Shown here: positions 56,211-63,474 of the stretch, one piece after another | Layout: each line of letters begins with the position of its first letter | Position numbering within the stretch: the first letter of the stretch is position 1 | Assembly (NCBI GenBank): GCA_000092065.1 | Contig: CP000588.1 | Source of the DNA: Ostreococcus lucimarinus | Taxonomy: Eukaryota | Length of the DNA stretch: 64,000 nucleotides | Reading direction: 5' to 3' (one strand) | The notes under the pieces: generated by a model | What the model saw: only the letters and a program-made list of their open reading frames with translations | Database searches by the model: none | Told to the model about the DNA's origin: nothing | Translations under genes and position numbers: made by a program

Positions 56211-57920
56211 CTACAGCGGCCAGTCTGGAAGTGGTCCGGGTACATATTCGCAATGAAATCCGTACGGTACGCGCATTGGAATATGCACGACGCACTGCGT
56301 CGTGAGTTCGTCGCCCGAGGCGTCTAAAATTAATAACTCTGCTCGAGGCTCTTCACCGTCGACGTCGAGGTGTGTCAACACGAGCAAATAACCGTCGTCT
56401 TCGCGCGCGGCATCTTTCGAAGGAACGAAAATAATGTCACCACACGTGACACCTTCACCTAATTCGTATCGAGTCGTCACTCCTGACTGTAGGTCGTGCT
56501 TGAGTACGGCGTCGAACAGAGGAATGTCCATGCGCGACTTTGGTTCGGTGCCCAATTTGTACGCCACCGAGTACGCGAAGCGGTACTTTAAGCCAGTGTA
56601 CTTGCGGTTAATACACGGAAAGTCGGAAGTCTGTTCGCATAGGCGCTTGCTCGATATTATCGCGTTAGCGTCGGTGTCGATTTGCCATCTCCACAACGCC
56701 GCAACGTCGCGACCGGCGTTCACTGGATTCTTCGCCGGCGTTGAACGCGGCACGTTCGACTCTTGGCACATCCCCAACGCGTTCGTTTCGTCGGCTTTGC
56801 ACACATCCAACGTCAGAATATTTCCTTCTTCGTACGCGTTCACGACGTGATACGCAAAGCACGTCTCGCCAGTGTCAATCCAAAACGGCCCTTCCTCACC
56901 TCTTCGTGGGAGATATCCGATACGCAACGTGCATTCTCTTTCAAAGCTAAACGGCAGTCCGCCTTCGATGACGCGCGGCAAGTTGAAGATCAACGGCCCA
57001 TCGATCAGCACCGTCTTTGTCGGCGTGATGGCGACGTCGTGTTGCATCGAGGGTCGAGGCACTTTAAATTGCCGCCGGTGCGTGCGTTTCCCCGTCTCGC
57101 CGTCGATCACGCCAACCGTGATCGTCGTCTGCCCATCCTGCTCGCCGCTCAGCGCCACGAGATTGTACCCGATGTAAATTAACTCGTCCGTCATCGGGCA
57201 CGTCTTCGAATGCGCGGTGAAATTGTCCAGCCAATAATCCATCGTGCCAAACGTCTGATTGAAATCGCACAGCCCTTTCGTGCGCAGCGTCGGCTCTAAC
57301 GCGATCTCGTACGGCGAACCGCTCTCGTACGTCGCTAACAATCGCCCCGCATGATGCGTCAATCCGTTACTACTCGTATTCTTGGACTGAATGACGAAGA
57401 ACGCCGAATCCGGCTGCCGAACGTCCAAGGTCATCTTTTCCAACAACCTCGGCAGCAAGTACCGCCAAATCGGATTTATATCCCGGAGCCCCGTGTACAG
57501 CGCCGCGTTCGCCTTTTCTTCTCGCTCGAAACCGCGCGTGCGCACGTACCGCCTTGTATACTCCGCTCGTTCGCCCTCGCCGCGCAAACGAATCGCGTGC
57601 ACCATGCCGTCGCCGTCGAACCAGTGATACCGATTCGTCCCGAGCGCCGGTCGAAATCGCGCGTTCGGGCCGTTCCGCAGGTACAACCCGTCCAAATCGT
57701 CCGGCAACCGCCCGCGCGCGACGACGCACGCGACGGGCGTCTCGAGCTCGCCCTCCACCGGCGCGAAGTTCCCAGATAACGCCGGGTTCGTCGTCGCGTC
57801 GTCGTCGAGCCACCGCGGCGCGCGCGAGATCGCGCGCGCGCGCGTCCCGGACGCATCGCTCGACCGCTCGCGCCGCGCGTCGACGCCCGCGGCGGCGCGC
57901 GAGACGCACAGCGCGCGCAT
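56211..57920 (-). CDS. carotenoid cleavage dioxygenase (CCD/NCED/RPE65 family)
   Basis: Family blocks: PDDLDGLYLRNGPNARF..HWFDGDGMVHAIRL; HHAGRLLATYESGSPYEI; His ligands in ..TAHSKTCPMTDELIYIGY.. and FAYHVVNAYEEGNILTLDVC; C-terminal ..PYGFHCEYVPG. ATG 57920 gives a ~45-aa presequence. The track ORF continues to 58514 through a Ser/Ala-rich low-complexity stretch that is antisense to CWC15. Confidence 0.75.
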   Translation of the reverse strand: MRALCVSRAAAGVDARRERSSDASGTRARAISRAPRWLDDDATTNPALSGNFAPVEGELETPVACVVARGRLPDDLDGLYLRNGPNARFRPALGTNRYHWFDGDGMVHAIRLRGEGERAEYTRRYVRTRGFEREEKANAALYTGLRDINPIWRYLLPRLLEKMTLDVRQPDSAFFVIQSKNTSSNGLTHHAGRLLATYESGSPYEIALEPTLRTKGLCDFNQTFGTMDYWLDNFTAHSKTCPMTDELIYIGYNLVALSGEQDGQTTITVGVIDGETGKRTHRRQFKVPRPSMQHDVAITPTKTVLIDGPLIFNLPRVIEGGLPFSFERECTLRIGYLPRRGEEGPFWIDTGETCFAYHVVNAYEEGNILTLDVCKADETNALGMCQESNVPRSTPAKNPVNAGRDVAALWRWQIDTDANAIISSKRLCEQTSDFPCINRKYTGLKYRFAYSVAYKLGTEPKSRMDIPLFDAVLKHDLQSGVTTRYELGEGVTCGDIIFVPSKDAAREDDGYLLVLTHLDVDGEEPRAELLILDASGDELTTQCVVHIPMRVPYGFHCEYVPGPLPDWPL

Positions 57921-57969
57921 CGCGAACGCGAGGACGAATTCGACGCTCGACGCGTCACTCACTGACGCG
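57921..57969. promoter_or_regulatory. 49-bp divergent (head-to-head) intergenic region between CCD and CWC15 start codons
   Basis: CCD ATG at 57920 (minus) and CWC15 ATG at 57970 (plus), both verified in the sequence. A shared promoter region is an inference. Confidence 0.3.
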
Positions 57970-58354
57970 ATGACGACCGCGCACCGACCGACGTGGGCGC
58001 CGGCGAAGGGAAAGGAACACCAAGGCGGCGCGCGCCTGTTCGGACCGAGCGCCAAGCACAGCAAACTCGACGCGAATGGATTCATGACGCTGAAGACGAG
58101 ACACGAATCGCAATCGGGCGCGGACGCGCTGCTCGCGCGGGATTTGCGCGCTGAGCTCGAGGAAAAGGAACGACGGGCGAAAGGAAAGGGCGCGATCGCG
58201 GGCGCGGACGTGAAGGAGACGATCGCGGCGCTGGGGAGCGGGGCGAGCGATGATGGTGGACGGTTTCGAACGCGAGCGGAGGACGCGGACGACGACGCGA
58301 GCGCGAGCGGGAGCGACGACGAGAGCGATTCGGGGAGCGATGATGAGAGCGATG
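57970..58354 (+). CDS. CWC15: spliceosome-associated protein CWC15 (AD002) exon 1
   Basis: ATG verified at 57970; MTTAHRPTWAPAKGKEHQGG.. (compare metazoan MTTAARPTFEPARGG..), ..RDLRAELEEKERRA.., acidic Ser/Asp tract ending SDDESD-G. Confidence 0.8.
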
Positions 58355-58496
58355 GTGCGTGTGCGATGTTTTCGTCTCTCGCGAACGATGGCGCGGCGCG
58401 CGATGCGATGCGAGACGCGAGACGCGAGACGCGAGACGCGAGACCCGACGACGCGAGGCGACGGCTGACTAACCCTACCACGCTCTCGATTCGCAG
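58355..58496 (+). other. CWC15: spliceosomal intron (142 bp, GTGCGT...CAG) of CWC15
   Basis: Donor GATG|gtgcgt at 58355 (phase 1) and acceptor ttcgcag| at 58496. The joined peptide ..[21 protein letters not shown].. matches the conserved CWC15 block ..[18 protein letters not shown]. Confidence 0.8.
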
Positions 58497-58822
58497 ACGA
58501 CGACACGGCCGCACTCTTGGCCGAGCTCGAGCGCATCAAGAGCGAACGCGCGGAAGAAGCGCGTTTGAAAGCCGAGGCCGAGGCGTCGGAGGCTTTCGAG
58601 CGACAAAAAGACGAATTAGCGACGGGGAACCCGTTATTGGACCTCGCGACTGGCGGCGCCGGCGCGAGCGCGGGCGGCGACTTTAGGACGAAACGGCGCT
58701 GGGACGACGACGTCGTGTTCCGCAACCAAGCGCGCGACGAGCCCAAGGTTGGGAAGCGTTTCATCAACGACACCATTCGAAGCGATTTCCACAAGAGGTT
58801 TTTGAACAAGTACATCAAGTAG
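58497..58822 (+). CDS. CWC15: CWC15 exon 2
   Basis: ..[75 protein letters not shown] matches the CWC15 C-terminus almost motif for motif; stop at 58822. Confidence 0.85.
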
Positions 58823-58977
58823 CCCGCCGCGAAAAATGATTTTTATCTCACGACGACGATGACGACGATGACGTGAAGATGACGTGAAGGTCGACGCCGT
58901 GCGCGCCGCACTCCGCGACTCGCTCGCGCGGACGACGATCGACCGACCCACGCGCACGCGCACACGTCTTAAAAACC

Positions 58978-60045
58978 ATGCGAACCGCGATGATGCACGC
59001 CGTGCGCGCGTACGCCCGCCCCGCGTCCGCGAGCCGCCGACCAACCCTCGGTCGCCAATCCATCGCCGCGCCGCGTCGTGGTTTCACCGTCTCCGCGCGC
59101 GCTTCGGATAAGACGGTGGAGAAGGGCGATGCCGTCGCGATTCACTACGTCGGCACGCTCGAGGACGGCACGACGTTCGACAGCTCGAGAGAACGAAACG
59201 AACCGATTAAATTCACCGTCGGCAGCGGGATGATGATCCCTGGGTTCGACAAGGGCGTCCTCGGATTGGCTGTCGGTCAAAGCAAGACGATCAAATGCGC
59301 GCCCGCGGATGCGTACGGGGAGGTGCGACCGGAAAATATCCTCAGAGTGCCGAAGAAGGACGTCGTGGACGCGGTGGGTGAAGATTTCGTCAAAGTTGGC
59401 GAAAAGCTGATGGTCGGACAAGGCATGCCGGCGGAGATCATCGAGGTGACGGACAGTGAGGTGGCGCTGGACGCCAATCACCCGTTGGCCGGGAAGACGT
59501 TGAACTTTGATATCGAGCTCATGAGCTTGGACCGACTCGAGGTGAAGCACCGAGATAAGTTCAAGTGCTATTTTGACATCACCATCGGCGGCGAAGCCGC
59601 GGGGCGAGTCACTATGGAGATTCGCGGCGACGTCACGCCCAAGTGCGGGGAGAACTTCAGGCAGTTGTGCACCGGTGAGGCTGGATTCGGATACAAGGGT
59701 TCTCCGTTTCATCGCGTGATCCCGGGTTTCATGTGCCAAGGTGGGGATTTCACCAACCGCAACGGCACGGGCGGCAAGTCCATCTTCGGCAACAAGTTTG
59801 AAGACGAAAACTTCACCTTGAAGCACACGGGACCGGGGATTTTGTCCATGGCGAACGCCGGACCGAACACGAACGGCTCGCAGTTTTTCTTGTGCACGGC
59901 TGAAACCGCTTGGTTGGACGGTAAGCACACCGTCTTCGGCTCCGTCATCGACGGCATGGACGTCGTTAAGAAGGTTGAAGCCGTTGGCTCGCAATCCGGC
60001 GCCACGTCCGCGGAAGTTCTCATCGCCGATTGCGGCGAGCTTTAG
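58978..60045 (+). CDS. dual-family immunophilin: SlyD-type FKBP (with insert-in-flap domain) fused to cyclophilin-type PPIase, with N-terminal presequence
   Basis: ATG verified at 58978; presequence [21 protein letters not shown]... FKBP core [56 protein letters not shown], then an IF-like segment [60 protein letters not shown] full cyclophilin domain follows ([102 protein letters not shown]). Confidence 0.85.
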
Positions 60046-60060
60046 GTTTTCGAGACACAG

Positions 60061-60065
60061 TTACA
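60061..60065 (-). promoter_or_regulatory. TGTAA poly(A)-signal-like motif (minus strand) ~95 nt downstream of the NHX stop
   Basis: Plus strand reads ttaca at 60061-60065 within the AT-rich convergent 3-prime UTR region 60046-60159. Confidence 0.3.
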
Positions 60066-60159
60066 CATTTCGCCCCCATTATTCCAACCCTTAATACCGA
60101 TTATTGCATTAATTGGCCTTGGCACAGTTTTAAATTAAAATCCAACACAACTACAAGTT

Positions 60160-61920
60160 TTACGCGTCGTCGCTCGACGGCCCAGCCGCGCGCAAGTTTT
60201 CTAAATCTTTCTCGTCATCATCGCCGATGGGGGTCAACTCCACATCCCTATACTCTTCGCCGTTCGCTGGCGTCGTCTCGTGAGCATCCGCGCTCCCTCC
60301 GGCGTCGCTCGTGTTGACGGGCGACCACGCTCCGTGCGCAGGCGCGCCGCCGAACGTCGGTATCATAAAATTGTTCTCTAAATCGTCCCACCACTCGAAC
60401 AATCTTGCCTTGACGCGAAAAGCTATGGAAAGGTACCAAATCGGGTGACCATCTGCGAGTGCCCGCGCGCGCACGGCACGAGCGCGCGGCGATGGGTTGA
60501 TGAAACCCAAGCCATCGTGCGCGGTCGCGCTCATCGCCGAGCTCACCATGCCCTCTCTGTCGCTCGGGTCGTGCAAGCCGAGATGTTTCATCAACGGTAG
60601 CGTGGCGCCGCCGAGAACTAGGGTAGAAACTAAGCAAATCACCAACGTCCCGGTCTCGACCGCGCGCGATCCTTGCTCGCCTGGTCGCGTCGACGGCATG
60701 TTTACGGCCAAGGCGTATGCGACGGCGCCTCGCAAACCGCACGCCGCGTGCATGACTTGAACGTTCCGGGGAATAGGCGTCTCTCGCAGTGTGTTCGCCA
60801 AACGACTGAGTGGAAATATATTCACAGCTCGAGCCGCCATGGCGAGAGGGATGCCCGTGAGCAAAATCCCAAAATCCCACAAATGATCAAACGTCGCGAC
60901 TTGCATGCCGAGATAGGCAAACACAAAGGTTTCGGATAAAAACGCCGCCGCCTCGAACGATTTAAACACAGCAATTTGGGCCTCTTCGCCGACGTTATGG
61001 TACGAGTAATGCGCGTTGCCGATACCCGTGAAAAATATGCTCATAATTCCGCTCATGCCCACGTTTTCCGCCAAGACGTACGAAAAGTACCCCGAGATGA
61101 GCAACAGCGCAAACGTGTACGCCGTGCCGTTGTACGACGCCGCCACGTTCGGCGGCGCTTCCGCCAATCCCAAAGTCTTCAGCAACAGCGCCGTACCGAG
61201 CGCGATCGCGATCCCGATGAGCAACGATCCGATGGAAACGAGTATGAATTGCCCTATGACGGTCCAAAACGTCGAAACCGTAAACTCTTGCTCGTAAAAC
61301 TCCGCCAACGTGCGAAACAAGACCACGGCGACGGCGTCGTTCAAAACGCTTTCACCAAAAACTAAATTATACAACAAAGGCGGCGCCGAGACGTCCGCAA
61401 AAACGCTCAGCGTCGCCACGGGATCGGTGGACGAAATCAACGTCCCGTACAACAGACACTCCAACAACGGATTCGACCCGAGATGTTTCCTCGCAATCAC
61501 GCCAATCTCCACCAGCACGAACGTGCTCAGCCCGAACACGAAGCTCGAGATCACCGTCCCCACGAACGCGAACAGCGCGATGGTGAAAAAATCCGCGAAG
61601 AAATCCCGTCGCTTCAGGTTCAATCCCGCGCTGTAGATGATGATCGGCAACAACCCATAAAAGAACGCCTGCGGCGAAAATTGAAACGCCGCCACGTCCG
61701 CGCCTCGCGCCGTCTTCGCGCGCGCGACGGCGCCGAACGCGACGCCCACGATCAGCGCCGCCCCGCTCGGCTGCACCGCGCGCACGTTATACCGCTGTAT
61801 GACGTAGCTCACGACGACGCACACCATGAGCAACAGCGTCGGGACGAGCGCGCTGTACCGATCGAGCGCCTCCGCGTCGCCGTGGCTCGGCATCGGCGGC
61901 GCTCCGGGCGTCGTCGACAT
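60160..61920 (-). CDS. Na+/H+ exchanger (CPA1/NHX-type antiporter)
   Basis: ATG at 61920-61918 (MSTTPGAPPMPSHGD..). About 10-12 TM helices with NHX motifs FFYGLLPIIIYSAGLNL, LISSTDPVATLSVF, VFGESVLNDAVAVVLF, TETFVFAYLGM. Hydrophilic C-terminal tail; stop at 60160. The track ORF upstream extension to 62769 is Arg-rich read-through. Confidence 0.85.
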   Translation of the reverse strand: MSTTPGAPPMPSHGDAEALDRYSALVPTLLLMVCVVVSYVIQRYNVRAVQPSGAALIVGVAFGAVARAKTARGADVAAFQFSPQAFFYGLLPIIIYSAGLNLKRRDFFADFFTIALFAFVGTVISSFVFGLSTFVLVEIGVIARKHLGSNPLLECLLYGTLISSTDPVATLSVFADVSAPPLLYNLVFGESVLNDAVAVVLFRTLAEFYEQEFTVSTFWTVIGQFILVSIGSLLIGIAIALGTALLLKTLGLAEAPPNVAASYNGTAYTFALLLISGYFSYVLAENVGMSGIMSIFFTGIGNAHYSYHNVGEEAQIAVFKSFEAAAFLSETFVFAYLGMQVATFDHLWDFGILLTGIPLAMAARAVNIFPLSRLANTLRETPIPRNVQVMHAACGLRGAVAYALAVNMPSTRPGEQGSRAVETGTLVICLVSTLVLGGATLPLMKHLGLHDPSDREGMVSSAMSATAHDGLGFINPSPRARAVRARALADGHPIWYLSIAFRVKARLFEWWDDLENNFMIPTFGGAPAHGAWSPVNTSDAGGSADAHETTPANGEEYRDVELTPIGDDDEKDLENLRAAGPSSDDA

Positions 61921-62205
61921 CGACGGTCGACGAATCACGAATCCGTCTTCCCCGTCGGCGCGCGTCGCGTCGCGCGTCGCGCGATGTCGACTCGAAATCG
62001 ACGAATTCACGACGCTTCGACGGACGCGAGAAAGATTCAAACCGAACCGCAGTCTTGGGCGCGCGTCGACGCGACGCCGACGCCGATGACGACGACGGCG
62101 CGCGACGACGCGCGGTGCGACGACGACGCGCGACGCGCGCGCGCGTACGTCTCGCGATGGGCCGCGCGCGACGCCGCGAGCGCGCGAGGGACGACGCCGA
62201 AAGCG
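61921..62205. promoter_or_regulatory. 285-bp divergent intergenic region between NHX and POLD3-like start codons
   Basis: NHX ATG at 61920 (minus) and POLD3-like ATG at 62206 (plus). Confidence 0.3.
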
Positions 62206-63474
62206 ATGCGCATGGCGCTCGGCGCCGTCGACGACGCGGTGTCGCACCGCGCGTTCGTCGACGCGGTGAAGACGCTGGCGCGCGAAGACGCGAAAGAAGC
62301 AAAGGATGGAACTCGCGTGCGATTGGTGTGCGAACGGACGACGACGGAGGCGAACGGGATGGGGAGGAGGGTGACGCGGCGAGTCGCGCGCGAGGCGGAG
62401 GCGGACGAACGCGTCGCGGGCGCGGTGAAGACGACGGCGAGCGGGGGGGACGAAGCGTGCGCGATGGTGTACGAAGACGAACAGAGGATAAAACGCGAGA
62501 TGTATGACGCGCCGAACGAGGAGATGAACGCGTTTCGGGAGAATAAGTACGGGACGGTGACGTGCGAGACGGCGACGAGAAACGCCGAACGCGGACGACG
62601 AGGCGCGAGCGACGCGCGAGCGGCGAACGGGACGGCGGTGAAGACGAACGGGGCGTCCAAGGCGAGCGTCGCGGGGACGCCTGCGGTGGCGACGCCGAAG
62701 GAGGGTGGGGCGACCGCCGCGGGCAGGTCGGCGGCGAAGCAAAAGGACGCGGGCGCGAAGAAGAACCATTCGTTGATGTCGATGTTCGCCAACGCGCCGA
62801 AGCCCAAGGCGAAGGCGGCGACGACGAGCGAAGCGCCGAAGCGCGCCGCGGTGGCGGAGGTGAAGAAAGAAAAGGCGCCGACGCCGAAGAAGAAGGCGCC
62901 AGCGAGCGCGGAGGCGGCGATTTTAGCCGCCGAAGAGGATGAGAGCGACGACGACGATTCGGACGACGAAATCGGCGGCGCGAAGCGCAAGCCGCGTAAA
63001 AAGCGCGCGATTACGATCGAGTCCGAAGACGAGGAGGAAGACGAGGAGGAAGACATGGAAATTGTCGACGATGAACCCGAACCCGAACCGACGCCAAAAT
63101 CGACGCCCAAGAAGACGCCCAAGTCGACGCCCAAGAAGAAGACGCCCAAGTCGACGCCCAAGAAGACGCCGCCGTCTTCCAAGCGCAAGACGCCGTCGAC
63201 GCCGATCAACGACGAAAACGACGAGAACGCGTCAGATGTCGCTCCAAGCGAACCGAACTCGCGCCCGCAATCGGCGTCGAAGAAGCACAAGAAGGAAAAG
63301 CCGCTCTCGAAAAAGGCGTTACTGGCGCGACGAATCAAGAAAACCGTCGAGGAGATGGACGAAGAGACGGGCGAGGAAATCATGAGGACGTTTTTCGTCG
63401 ACGAGTTCGACAACGAGCTCAACGAAGACGGCACTTACAAAGATCCTGATAACGTGAAGACGGCCACGGCGTGA
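62206..63474 (+). CDS. DNA polymerase delta subunit 3 (POLD3/Cdc27/Pol32)-like protein
   Basis: ATG ..CGC ATG at 62206/62212. N-terminal globular part, then Lys/Ala/Pro-rich disordered region with blocks resembling POLD3: NHSLMSMFANAPK (compare IMGMFASKAAAK), RKKRAITIESEDEEEDEEED (compare GKRVALSDDE), C-terminal KKALLARRIKKTVEEMDEETGEEIMRTFFVDEFDNE (compare RKRVLKSKTYLDGEGCIVTEKVYESE). Confidence 0.5.
   Translation: MRMALGAVDDAVSHRAFVDAVKTLAREDAKEAKDGTRVRLVCERTTTEANGMGRRVTRRVAREAEADERVAGAVKTTASGGDEACAMVYEDEQRIKREMYDAPNEEMNAFRENKYGTVTCETATRNAERGRRGASDARAANGTAVKTNGASKASVAGTPAVATPKEGGATAAGRSAAKQKDAGAKKNHSLMSMFANAPKPKAKAATTSEAPKRAAVAEVKKEKAPTPKKKAPASAEAAILAAEEDESDDDDSDDEIGGAKRKPRKKRAITIESEDEEEDEEEDMEIVDDEPEPEPTPKSTPKKTPKSTPKKKTPKSTPKKTPPSSKRKTPSTPINDENDENASDVAPSEPNSRPQSASKKHKKEKPLSKKALLARRIKKTVEEMDEETGEEIMRTFFVDEFDNELNEDGTYKDPDNVKTATA

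What the first reader, a model, noticed from the sequence alone, without database searches (positions are those of the whole stretch)
58978..60045. SlyD-type FKBP fused to a cyclophilin (dual-family immunophilin) behind an organellar presequence
The N-terminal half has an FKBP core plus a SlyD-like insert-in-flap chaperone segment (..[38 protein letters not shown]). It is followed directly, without a TPR linker, by a complete cyclophilin-A-like domain. Known dual-family immunophilins (apicomplexan FCBPs, a few bacterial ones) have different domain order or linkers. A SlyD-like IF domain in a eukaryotic nuclear gene points to bacterial/plastid ancestry. The Arg/Ala-rich N-terminus suggests chloroplast or mitochondrial targeting.
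Basis: partly seen in the sequence, partly recalled or inferred. Interest (0 to 1): 0.65.

Follow-up and report, generated by a model that had tools for sequence, protein, structure and literature searches.

The report
Green-algal FKBP–cyclophilin fusion folding enzyme
This is a real single gene in an Ostreococcus-type green alga that joins a bacterial-style FKBP prolyl isomerase, with its built-in chaperone insert, directly to a human-like cyclophilin behind an organelle-targeting leader; its O. tauri counterpart was already noted in 2009, so it is interesting but not new.

Summary
Window 58978-60045 (+) is one uninterrupted 355-codon ORF.

- **Residues 1-43:** an acid-free, Arg/Ala/Ser-rich leader.
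- **Residues 44-185:** an FKBP domain with an insert-in-flap (IF) chaperone module. Its model (pLDDT 93) matches SlyD, SlpA, MjFKBP26 and MtFKBP17 at TM 0.7-0.84. Classical FKBPs match only the core.
- **Residues 186-194:** a short conserved linker with no indels. There is no TPR.
- **Residues 195-355:** a CypA/CypD-like cyclophilin that keeps all 13 catalytic and cyclosporin-contact residues.

The fusion is conserved and vertically inherited in Ostreococcus, Micromonas, Bathycoccus, Pyramimonas, Pycnococcus and Tetraselmis. Complete single-ORF transcripts exist, and the O. tauri locus is syntenic with a single-exon gene call.

The FKBP half is prokaryote-like, at 44-55% identity to single-domain FKBPs of about 140 aa from many phyla. 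A cyanobacterial or plastid origin is not supported.

A conserved R-x-F motif at the end of the leader favours mitochondrial import, but the chloroplast stroma is not excluded.

Krücken et al. 2009 already listed the O. tauri orthologue (OtCPR7) as a TPR-less FKBP-Cyp protein with a bacterial-type FKBP. I file this gene as a new member of a known, though neglected, kind.

The parts
58978..60045 (+). Complete single-exon coding sequence (355 codons plus TAG) of the IF-FKBP/cyclophilin fusion protein
   Evidence: The ORF is listed. Both Pfam domains lie in one frame. The syntenic O. tauri orthologue is called as one 355-aa gene of 1068 nt.
58978..59106 (+). N-terminal presequence, residues 1-43 ([36 protein letters not shown]|TVSARAS). 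It has no acidic residue, is 21% Arg, and carries R-G-F at 34-36.
   Evidence: This stretch is absent from the prokaryotic homologues, which start at the equivalent of residue ~44. It cannot be aligned across the family yet is always acid-poor. Its pLDDT is below 50. The R-x-[FYL] motif is enriched against shuffles.
59107..59322 (+). FKBP catalytic core, first part (residues 44-115). Y57, F67, D68, R73, I87, F90 and Y113 correspond to FKBP12 Y26, F36, D37, R42, I56, W59 and Y82.
   Evidence: Pfam FKBP_C, residue mapping and family-invariant columns.
59323..59475 (+). Insert-in-flap (IF) chaperone module (residues ~116-166): four strands plus one short helix, inserted where FKBP12 has its flap loop
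   Evidence: Sequence alignment through the IF of SlyD and SlpA. The model has pLDDT 93. The top 22 Foldseek hits are all IF-containing FKBPs, at TMq 0.69-0.84 for the crystal structures and 0.55-0.69 for NMR models.
59476..59532 (+). FKBP core, last strand (residues 167-185, [19 protein letters not shown])
   Evidence: N167, H168, P169, L170, A171, G172, L175 and F177 are invariant in the family, and the motif is shared with prokaryotic homologues.
59533..59559 (+). Short inter-domain linker (residues 186-194, RLEVKHRDK). R186 and K190 are invariant, H191 is near-invariant, and no family member has an indel here.
   Evidence: Alignment A1. The full-length model has block-mean pLDDT of 84-90 over residues 181-200.
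59560..60042 (+). Cyclophilin A/D-like PPIase domain (residues 195-355) with R246, F251, M252, Q254, A292, N293, A294, Q302, F304, W312, L313 and H317
   Evidence: Pfam Pro_isomerase at 158 bits. Human CypD and CypA match at E ~1e-79. Foldseek TMt is 0.8. All 13 mapped CypA residues, including the 12 listed here, are identical.

Best explanation
A single nuclear gene of an Ostreococcus-type picoalga encodes an organelle-imported, three-module protein-folding catalyst.

**Proposed mechanism**
1. The leader directs import. I favour the mitochondrial matrix, with cleavage at or after R-G-F36. This step is inferred.
2. The mature protein has an FKBP prolyl isomerase whose flap carries an IF chaperone module. 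By analogy with SlyD and SlpA, the IF captures unfolded chain segments and feeds them to the active site.
3. A short, conserved, apparently ordered 9-residue linker then leads to a fully equipped CypA/CypD-type cyclophilin.
4. The likely role is to speed up proline-limited refolding of proteins that enter the organelle unfolded. One chaperone module would raise local substrate concentration for two isomerases with complementary sequence preferences.

**Evolution.** The gene is a chimera: a prokaryote-type IF-FKBP joined once to a eukaryote-type cyclophilin in an early chlorophyte, then inherited vertically.

**Shown here:** the ORF, both domains, the IF fold, the catalytic residues, conservation of the fusion, and the prokaryotic affinity of the FKBP half.

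**Inferred:** enzymatic and chaperone activity, cooperation between the modules, and the compartment.
For: - **Gene and domains:** one ORF with both domains.
- **IF fold:** the model has pLDDT 93, and the top 22 PDB structural hits are all SlyD, SlpA, MjFKBP26 or MtFKBP17. Classical FKBPs reach only TMq ~0.57.
- **Active sites:** all CypA active-site and cyclosporin-contact residues are identical, and the key FKBP residues are kept.
- **Conservation of the fusion:** it occurs in Ostreococcus tauri, the O. lucimarinus clade, Micromonas polaris, Bathycoccus prasinos, Pyramimonas species, Pycnococcus/Pseudoscourfieldia and Tetraselmis striata. Several come from complete MMETSP transcripts, so there is one mRNA.
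- **Junction:** no indels, with invariant R186, K190 and F195.
- **Single origin:** the FKBP halves form one clade (87% bootstrap), and its topology follows the species tree.
- **Locus:** the O. tauri locus is syntenic with a single-exon call, and the Cwc15 neighbour is also kept in a Micromonas-like contig.
- **Fusion arose in the alga:** the prokaryotic relatives are single-domain, end within 27 residues or fewer of the FKBP domain, and have no cyclophilin within 1.5 kb.
- **Leader:** 42-83 aa with 0-2 acidic residues in every aligned member. R-x-[FYL] followed by a small residue occurs in 15 of 20 members, against 2.6±1.5 in shuffles. This matches the dominant '-3 Arg, Phe/Tyr/Leu at -1' class of plant mitochondrial presequences, whose mean length is 45 aa (PMC3566409). 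The Ostreococcus leaders begin M-R.
Against: - No activity, chaperone or localisation data exist for any family member.
- The full-length model is only moderate (pLDDT 70, pTM 0.54, with poor cyclophilin loops from a 13-sequence alignment). The relative orientation and cooperation of the domains are therefore unverified.
- The Pyramimonas and Tetraselmis leaders are long (76-86 aa), Ser/Thr-rich, start MAS/MSL with a late first basic residue, and contain V-x-A-like sites. That looks chloroplast-like.
- Five of the 20 leaders lack the strict R-x-[FYL] motif. Three have R-x-x-F or R-x-x-x-F instead, and two Ostreococcus sequences, including O. tauri, have no Phe there.
- The 20 sequences are phylogenetically related, so the shuffle test overstates significance.
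- Targeting predictors are known to be unreliable far from their training taxa (abstract of PMC11581415).
Confidence: 0.7

Rival explanations
1. The protein and its mechanism are the same, but it works in the chloroplast stroma, or is dual-targeted, rather than in the mitochondrial matrix.
For: The leaders of Pyramimonas, Tetraselmis and Pycnococcus are 48-86 aa and Ser/Thr/Ala-rich. Several start MAS, MAF or MSL, with the first basic residue at position 5-15. V-x-A|A-like sites are present (VSA|RA, VCA|AS, VIA|SA). Green-algal chloroplast transit peptides are known to resemble mitochondrial presequences (general knowledge).
Against: A conserved R-x-F motif sits about 10-15 residues before the mature domain in most members. 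The Ostreococcus and Micromonas leaders are 43-54 aa, 11-21% Arg, and begin M-R or M-H. These features fit the plant mitochondrial class II presequence. A thylakoid-lumen route is unlikely because no hydrophobic H-region follows the RR pairs (sequence inspection).
Confidence: 0.35
2. The FKBP/IF half is a plastid (cyanobacterial) endosymbiotic gene transfer. The first reader suggested this, and Krücken et al. 2009 suggested it for OtCPR7.
For: The FKBP half is clearly prokaryote-like. Cyanobacteria do possess homologues: Pantanalinema at 46% and Elainellaceae at 44% identity by tblastn.
Against: Cyanobacterial sequences are among the least similar in the trimmed alignment (45-49%). They cluster with Zixiibacteriota, not with the algal clade. 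The nearest prokaryotes (Acidobacteria, Rhodobacteraceae, Phycisphaerae, Bacteroidota, DPANN archaea) are all at about 50-55%, and the sister relationship has only 44% support. No cyanobacterium appears among the named top 120 hits.
Confidence: 0.12
3. The fusion is an annotation or assembly artefact, and two adjacent genes (an FKBP and a cyclophilin) are read as one.
For: Some public models contain only one half. O. lucimarinus XP_001419236 is 174 aa (Cyp only), and O. tauri BE221DRAFT_73235 is a partial 185-aa FKBP-only model. Many metagenome calls are 271 or 143 aa.
Against: The frame is continuous, with only 9 conserved residues between the domains and no stop. The 271-aa and 143-aa forms are exactly the lengths expected if a prokaryote-style gene caller starts at internal Met85 or Met213. 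Full-length single ORFs occur in independent genomes and in complete transcripts of at least six genera.
Confidence: 0.02

Closest known systems
OtCPR7 (CAL55134), the Ostreococcus tauri 'FCBP' noted by Krücken et al. 2009 (PMC2713222). Its current model is CEG01623.1 / XP_022841068.1 / A0A090M8Z0.
   Same: It is the orthologue: 79% identity, 355 aa, the same architecture and the same neighbouring genes. The 2009 paper already reported that it lacks TPR repeats, arose independently in Chlorophyta, and has an FKBP domain that groups with bacterial FKBPs.
   Different: The 2009 model was partial (>266 aa) with a truncated Cyp domain. In the passages and supplement I searched, that paper does not mention the IF chaperone insert, the intact cyclophilin, the presequence, the conserved short linker, or the spread across chlorophyte classes. 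The link between CAL55134 and the current model rests on species and architecture, not on a sequence comparison.
Apicomplexan and alveolate FCBPs (e.g. Toxoplasma gondii FCBP57): FKBP-3xTPR-cyclophilin dual-family immunophilins (Adams et al. 2005; Barik 2018, PMC6316441)
   Same: One polypeptide from a unicellular eukaryote, with the FKBP N-terminal and a CypA/ABH-type cyclophilin C-terminal.
   Different: Those proteins have a classical FKBP without an IF, a three-TPR linker and no organellar leader. This one has an IF-type FKBP of prokaryotic affinity, a 9-residue linker, no TPR and a leader. Barik's reviews state that all eukaryotic FCBPs contain 3TPR, and this family contradicts that.
Bacterial CFBPs (Flavobacteria, spirochaetes): cyclophilin, a ~50-aa disordered linker, then FKBP (PMC5852385, PMC6316441)
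   Same: Two unrelated PPIase families in one chain, with no TPR.
   Different: The domain order is reversed, the linker is long and intrinsically disordered, and the hosts are prokaryotes. I did not test whether their FKBP domains carry an IF insert.
SlyD, SlpA (FkpB) and archaeal short FKBPs (MtFKBP17, MjFKBP26): FKBP plus IF-domain PPIase-chaperones
   Same: The two-lobed fold is shared, at TM 0.7-0.84, as is the conserved DANHPLAGK motif. The closest sequence relatives are bacterial and archaeal members of about 142 aa, at about 50% identity.
   Different: Those proteins are single-domain prokaryotic proteins. SlyD also has a His/Cys-rich metal-binding tail that is absent here. The NCBIfam equivalog cut-offs for SlyD and FkpB are not reached. 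In this gene the FKBP-IF unit is extended by a cyclophilin.
Engineered FKBP12-IF chimeras (PDB 5i7p, 5i7q)
   Same: They are the best sequence match (E 9e-29) and the best structural match (TMq 0.84) to the N-terminal half. They show that an IF module can be combined with a eukaryote-like FKBP core.
   Different: They are artificial, contain no cyclophilin, and are not relatives by descent.

Membership tests
Cyclophilin-type PPIase (Pfam PF00160, CypA/ABH-like) | Profile match above the curated cut-off over the whole domain | tested here: met
   158.3 bits against a cut-off of 21.7, covering profile positions 1-158 of 159. Human CypD and CypA match at E ~1e-79.
Cyclophilin-type PPIase (Pfam PF00160, CypA/ABH-like) | Catalytic and cyclosporin-binding residues R55, F60, M61, Q63, A101, N102, A103, Q111, F113, W121, L122, H126 | tested here: met
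   All are identical (R246 through H317) and invariant in the 13-member alignment.
Cyclophilin-type PPIase (Pfam PF00160, CypA/ABH-like) | Measured PPIase activity and inhibition by cyclosporin A | not testable with these tools
   This needs recombinant protein.
IF-containing FKBP PPIase-chaperones (SlyD / SlpA-FkpB / archaeal short FKBP; COG1047) | FKBP_C core above the Pfam cut-off | tested here: met
   84.2 bits against a cut-off of 21.1. The match spans residues 45-181 for a 94-position profile, so it is interrupted by an insert.
IF-containing FKBP PPIase-chaperones (SlyD / SlpA-FkpB / archaeal short FKBP; COG1047) | An insert of about 50 residues in the flap that adopts the IF fold | tested here: met
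   The model has pLDDT 93. The top 22 Foldseek PDB hits are all IF-FKBPs, with crystal structures at TMq 0.69-0.84 across 144-152 aligned columns. Classical FKBPs reach about 0.57.
E. coli SlyD equivalog (NCBIfam PRK10737) | Score above the equivalog cut-off, and a C-terminal His/Cys-rich metal-binding tail | tested here: not met
   59.5 bits against a cut-off of 174. No such tail exists, because the FKBP domain is followed directly by the cyclophilin.
E. coli FkpB/SlpA equivalog (NCBIfam PRK15095) | Score above the equivalog cut-off | tested here: not met
   83.4 bits against a cut-off of 125, although coverage is 3-147 of 156 profile positions.
Dual-family immunophilin, FCBP class (FKBP-3TPR-Cyp) | FKBP N-terminal and cyclophilin C-terminal in one polypeptide of a unicellular eukaryote | tested here: met
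Dual-family immunophilin, FCBP class (FKBP-3TPR-Cyp) | A three-TPR linker between the domains (stated for 'all FCBPs' in PMC6316441) | tested here: not met
   There is no TPR hit at E<=0.1, and only 9 residues lie between the domains.
Dual-family immunophilin, CFBP class (Cyp-linker-FKBP) | Cyclophilin first, a ~50-aa disordered linker, a prokaryotic host | tested here: not met
   The order is FKBP then Cyp. The linker is 9 aa and is modelled with block-mean pLDDT of 84-90. The context is eukaryotic.
Nuclear-encoded organelle-imported protein | A cleavable N-terminal extension relative to prokaryotic homologues, basic, hydroxylated and acid-free | tested here: met
   The window protein has a 43-aa leader with 0 Asp/Glu and 9 Arg. 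All 13 aligned members have 42-83 aa leaders with 0-2 acidic residues. Prokaryotic homologues start at the FKBP core.
Nuclear-encoded organelle-imported protein | Which organelle: a mitochondrial -3 Arg cleavage motif versus a chloroplast transit peptide | tested here: inconclusive
   R-x-[FYL] occurs in 15 of 20 leaders, against 2.6 expected, and it fits the motif described in PMC3566409. Some leaders nonetheless look chloroplast-like. TargetP and PredAlgo were not available.

The most novel reading that the evidence does not exclude
This family is a third, unrecognised architectural class of dual-family immunophilin. An IF-chaperone FKBP of prokaryotic descent is hard-wired through a short, ordered, conserved linker to a CypA-type cyclophilin. 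It was created once in an early chlorophyte and kept as an organellar folding catalyst in prasinophyte-grade algae and Chlorodendrophyceae. In that catalyst, one chaperone module would serve two different prolyl isomerases. This would overturn the published rule that all eukaryotic FKBP-Cyp proteins use a 3xTPR linker. It would also be a natural counterpart of the engineered chaperone-domain/PPIase chimeras.
Probability: 0.45. Interest if true: 0.4.

Novelty: new member of a known kind. Interest (0 to 1): 0.3.

Why it matters
This gene shows that FKBP-cyclophilin fusions arose independently in green algae, in a form the standard classification does not cover: an IF chaperone insert, no TPR, a rigid-looking 9-residue linker and an organellar leader.

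If the three modules cooperate, the protein would be a compact natural example of the design principle that protein engineers used when they grafted the SlyD IF domain onto other isomerases. It may also be a main catalyst of proline-limited folding after protein import in the streamlined organelles of picoeukaryotes.

In practical terms, it flags truncated gene models in public records, such as O. lucimarinus XP_001419236. The biology is incremental, because both domains are textbook enzymes and the O. tauri orthologue was noted in 2009.

Tried and rejected
1. **Junction-centred homologue search.** It returned only fragments of the same family and then plain cyclophilins. No second fusion lineage appeared.
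2. **Exhaustive search of 50%-identity representatives.** Apart from the family's own representative (P0017), the two-stretch hits I inspected were Cyp-Cyp tandems, plus one classical FKBP joined to a Cyp through a hydrophobic segment (P0534). None shares the IF-FKBP then Cyp design.
3. **FKBP hits of 175-217 aa.** I suspected standalone eukaryotic targeted IF-FKBPs. They are bacterial lipoproteins or secreted forms.
4. **Cyclophilin next to the nearest prokaryotic FKBP genes.** I searched the 80 nearest loci for a flanking or fused cyclophilin as a possible precursor. None was found.
5. **Other window genes as organelle-targeting comparators.** None has a clean, known organellar location, so I dropped this route.
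6. **Foldseek with the full-length model.** It reported only cyclophilins, so a separate FKBP/IF model was needed. AFDB50 was unavailable.
7. **Thylakoid-lumen targeting.** Rejected because no hydrophobic H-region follows the Arg-Arg pairs.
8. **The 'Prorocentrum' member (P0088).** Rejected as evidence for dinoflagellates, because it falls in the same 90%-identity cluster as Pyramimonas obovata and is likely contamination.
9. **Huang et al. 2009 (PMC2705053).** This primary source for the cleavage motif was not held. I cited the authors' 2013 review instead.
Full report
**Observation.** Window 58978-60045 (+) is a single ORF of 355 codons from ATG to TAG, with no internal stop. The region has about 60% G+C. 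The 341-aa ORF on the opposite strand is the usual shadow ORF of GC-rich coding DNA.

Pfam places FKBP_C at residues 45-181 (84 bits, cut-off 21). A 94-position profile spread over 137 residues means the domain is interrupted by an insert. Pro_isomerase lies at 198-353 (158 bits, cut-off 22). No TPR is detected.

The neighbouring genes are a carotenoid-cleavage dioxygenase (RPE65 family), the spliceosome factor Cwc15 and an NHX-type Na+/H+ exchanger. Further out are ValRS, a kinesin, SNF2, SET/PHD and V-ATPase subunit a. This is a compact eukaryotic nuclear genome. The best protein matches identify an Ostreococcus species distinct from O. tauri (79% identity) and from the O. lucimarinus clade (85-87%).

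**The two halves.** The C-terminal half is a canonical CypA/CypD-type cyclophilin. It matches human CypD and CypA at E about 1e-79 and roughly 66-70% identity, with Foldseek TMt of 0.8. All 13 catalytic and cyclosporin-contact residues are identical, including the Trp121 equivalent, and all are invariant in the family.

The N-terminal half keeps FKBP12 residues Y26, F36, D37, R42, I56 and Y82. F46 is replaced by I, V55 by M and W59 by F, and the flap is replaced by an insert of about 50 residues.

Three lines of evidence show that the insert is a genuine insert-in-flap (IF) chaperone module:
- phmmer aligns it residue by residue with the IF segments of E. coli SlyD and SlpA (as present in the FKBP12-IF chimeras 5i7p and 5i7q), with SlpA 4dt4 and with MtFKBP17 1ix5.
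- The NCBIfam FkpB/SlpA model covers positions 3-147 of 156.
- An AlphaFold model of residues 44-188, built on 56 homologues, has pLDDT 93. Its top 22 PDB matches are all IF-containing FKBPs (SlyD, SlpA, MjFKBP26, MtFKBP17), with crystal structures at TMq 0.69-0.84 over the full length. Classical FKBPs match only the core, at TMq about 0.57.

The protein is not a SlyD or FkpB equivalog, however. Both NCBIfam cut-offs are missed (59.5 against 174 bits, 83.4 against 125 bits), and there is no metal-binding tail.

**One gene, conserved.** Full-length proteins with both domains occur in O. tauri (CEG01623.1), the O. lucimarinus clade, Micromonas polaris, Bathycoccus prasinos (CAL6350939.1), Pyramimonas parkeae, P. 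obovata and another Pyramimonas, Pycnococcus provasolii / Pseudoscourfieldia marina, and Tetraselmis striata. Several are 'complete' MMETSP transcripts, which means one mRNA spans both halves.

Across 13 aligned members, the junction (…[21 protein letters not shown]…) has no indel. R186, K190 and F195 are invariant, and H191 is nearly so. In the full-length model this stretch has block-mean pLDDT of 84-90. The model as a whole is only moderate (pLDDT 70, pTM 0.54), so domain packing is not established.

The O. tauri locus has the same gene order (RPE65, Cwc15, fusion gene, NHX) and one 1068-nt single-exon call. A Micromonas-like contig also keeps Cwc15 next to the fusion gene.

Shorter public models are truncated gene models or gene-caller artefacts. 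They include a 174-aa Cyp-only model in O. lucimarinus, a partial 185-aa FKBP-only model in an O. tauri strain, and 271-aa and 143-aa metagenome calls. The last two are exactly the lengths expected from internal starts at Met85 and Met213.

**Origin.** With the FKBP/IF half alone, the best hits outside the fusion family are single-domain FKBPs of about 142 aa (COG1047, 'FKBP-type PPIase 2') at 46-55% identity. They come from Acidobacteria, Rhodobacteraceae, Phycisphaerae, Bacteroidota, Acidimicrobiia and DPANN archaea. The longer hits are bacterial lipoproteins.

A scan of one genome per prokaryotic species gave the same picture: 44-51% identity across many phyla, with two cyanobacteria at 44-46%.

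In a neighbour-joining tree (38 sequences, 142 columns, 200 bootstraps), the algal FKBP halves form one clade with 87% support. The internal branching follows the species tree. The prokaryotic sister group is unresolved at 44%, and the cyanobacteria sit elsewhere.

None of the 80 nearest prokaryotic loci has a cyclophilin fused to the FKBP gene or within 1.5 kb of it. The cyclophilin half is of the ordinary eukaryotic CypA type.

The simplest reading is this. A prokaryote-type IF-FKBP gene, from an unknown donor, was joined once to a eukaryotic cyclophilin in an early chlorophyte and has been inherited vertically since. A bacterial-type origin is supported. A plastid origin is not supported, though a 140-residue domain cannot exclude it.

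An exhaustive HMMER pass over 1.84 billion representatives found only one 50%-identity cluster with this architecture. Within the reach of these searches the design therefore appears confined to chlorophytes. Its absence from Chlorophyceae, Trebouxiophyceae and streptophytes is suggested but not proven.

**Targeting.** Every aligned member has a 42-83-residue N-terminal extension that the prokaryotic homologues lack. The extensions contain 0-2 acidic residues and 8-21% Arg, are rich in Ala, Ser and Thr, and cannot be aligned with each other. These are the marks of an organellar presequence.

One element is conserved. About 10-15 residues before the mature domain, 15 of 20 leaders carry R-x-[F/Y/L] followed by a small residue (RGF|T in the window protein). 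Shuffled leaders give 2.6±1.5, and none of 2000 shuffles reaches 15. The sequences are related, so this overstates the significance.

The motif matches the dominant class of plant mitochondrial presequences: Arg at -3 and Phe/Tyr/Leu at -1, with a mean length of 45 aa (PMC3566409). The Ostreococcus leaders are 43 aa and start M-R. I therefore favour the mitochondrial matrix, at roughly 50-55%.

The long, Ser/Thr-rich leaders of Pyramimonas and Tetraselmis, which start MAS or MSL, look more like chloroplast transit peptides. Stromal or dual targeting therefore remains a live rival, at about 35-45%. A lumenal route is unlikely because no hydrophobic H-region follows the Arg-Arg pairs.

**Mechanism (inferred).** In SlyD and SlpA, the IF module binds unfolded segments and hands them to the FKBP site. 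Transplanting the IF onto FKBP12 yields the chimeras that are the best structural match here (established knowledge; PDB 5i7p and 5i7q). In this protein the same unit is tethered by nine conserved residues to a fully competent cyclophilin.

The most likely function is catalysis of proline-limited refolding of proteins that arrive unfolded in the organelle. One chaperone module would serve two isomerases with different sequence preferences. Nothing here tests activity or cooperation.

**Relation to what is known.** Barik's reviews recognise two classes of dual-family immunophilin: prokaryotic Cyp-linker-FKBP, and eukaryotic FKBP-3TPR-Cyp. They state that all FCBPs contain 3TPR, and they do not mention green algae. 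This family breaks that rule.

It is not undiscovered, though. Krücken et al. 2009 (PMC2713222) listed O. tauri 'OtCPR7' (CAL55134, a partial model) as a putative FCBP without TPR repeats. They argued for an independent origin in Chlorophyta and noted that its FKBP domain groups with bacterial FKBPs. No other paper in the library mentions the protein.

What this analysis adds is:
- the IF chaperone fold;
- the intact cyclophilin;
- the constrained linker;
- the organellar leader with an R-x-F motif;
- the distribution across at least four chlorophyte classes;
- the lack of support for a cyanobacterial origin.

**Verdict.** The finding is real and correctly described. It is modestly interesting to people who work on PPIases and chaperones. 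It is a new member (an orthologue) of a known but poorly characterised kind. Interest 0.3.

Noticed in passing
window 57970-58822 (+): The upstream Cwc15/Cwf15 spliceosome gene is split over two reading frames. Pfam profile positions 1-162 fall in the ORF starting at 57970, and positions 148-244 fall in ORF 58517-58822. This implies one short intron of about 100 nt near 58415-58520. The O. tauri orthologue is called as 235 aa over 819 nt, which is consistent with an intron.
   Followed up: partly
window 56211-62769; L081 (O. tauri CAID01000008.2, 678806-687873); L082: The gene order RPE65-type dioxygenase (-), Cwc15 (+), FKBP-Cyp (+), Na+/H+ exchanger (-) is identical in O. tauri. The Cwc15 / FKBP-Cyp adjacency is also kept in a Micromonas-like contig, with Cwc15 on the other side of the fusion gene and on the opposite strand.
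   Followed up: yes
P0090, P0095, P0101: Eukaryotic transcriptome and metagenome proteins of 520-540 aa have the architecture Cyp-Cyp-(low-complexity linker)-classical FKBP12-type domain. This looks like another dual-family layout, and a 'Cyp first' protein from apparent eukaryotes. It does not fit the published rule that CFBPs are prokaryotic only.
   Followed up: no
P0534: A 401-aa protein has an N-terminal signal-like segment, a classical FKBP without an IF, a hydrophobic stretch and then a CypA-type domain. This is a further TPR-less FKBP-Cyp design, unrelated to the IF-type family.
   Followed up: no
P0340 (Pycnococcus provasolii) and P0099 (MMETSP transcript): The Pycnococcus orthologue carries an extra 'divergent loop' (GEGSSGKDLHFKGS) in its cyclophilin domain that the other members lack. 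P0099 has a Micromonas-like FKBP half, but after about residue 230 it switches to a different cyclophilin subtype. It is probably a chimeric assembly.
   Followed up: no
Public records XP_001419236.1 (O. lucimarinus) and BE221DRAFT_73235 (O. tauri); Deposited gene models cover only one half of the gene: 174 aa Cyp-only and 185 aa FKBP-only (partial). These are probable annotation truncations.
   Followed up: partly
P0131, P0169: In these bacterial lipoprotein FKBPs, the '…[14 protein letters not shown]…' terminal strand comes before the FKBP core. They look like circularly permuted IF-FKBPs.
   Followed up: no
P0088 ('Prorocentrum minimum/cordatum' in EukProt): This fusion protein is labelled as dinoflagellate but falls in the same 90%-identity cluster as Pyramimonas obovata and another Pyramimonas. 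It is likely prey or culture contamination in the dinoflagellate dataset.
   Followed up: partly
window 58969-59994 (-): A 341-aa antisense ORF overlaps the gene. It was not searched separately and is read as a shadow ORF typical of GC-rich coding sequence.
   Followed up: no
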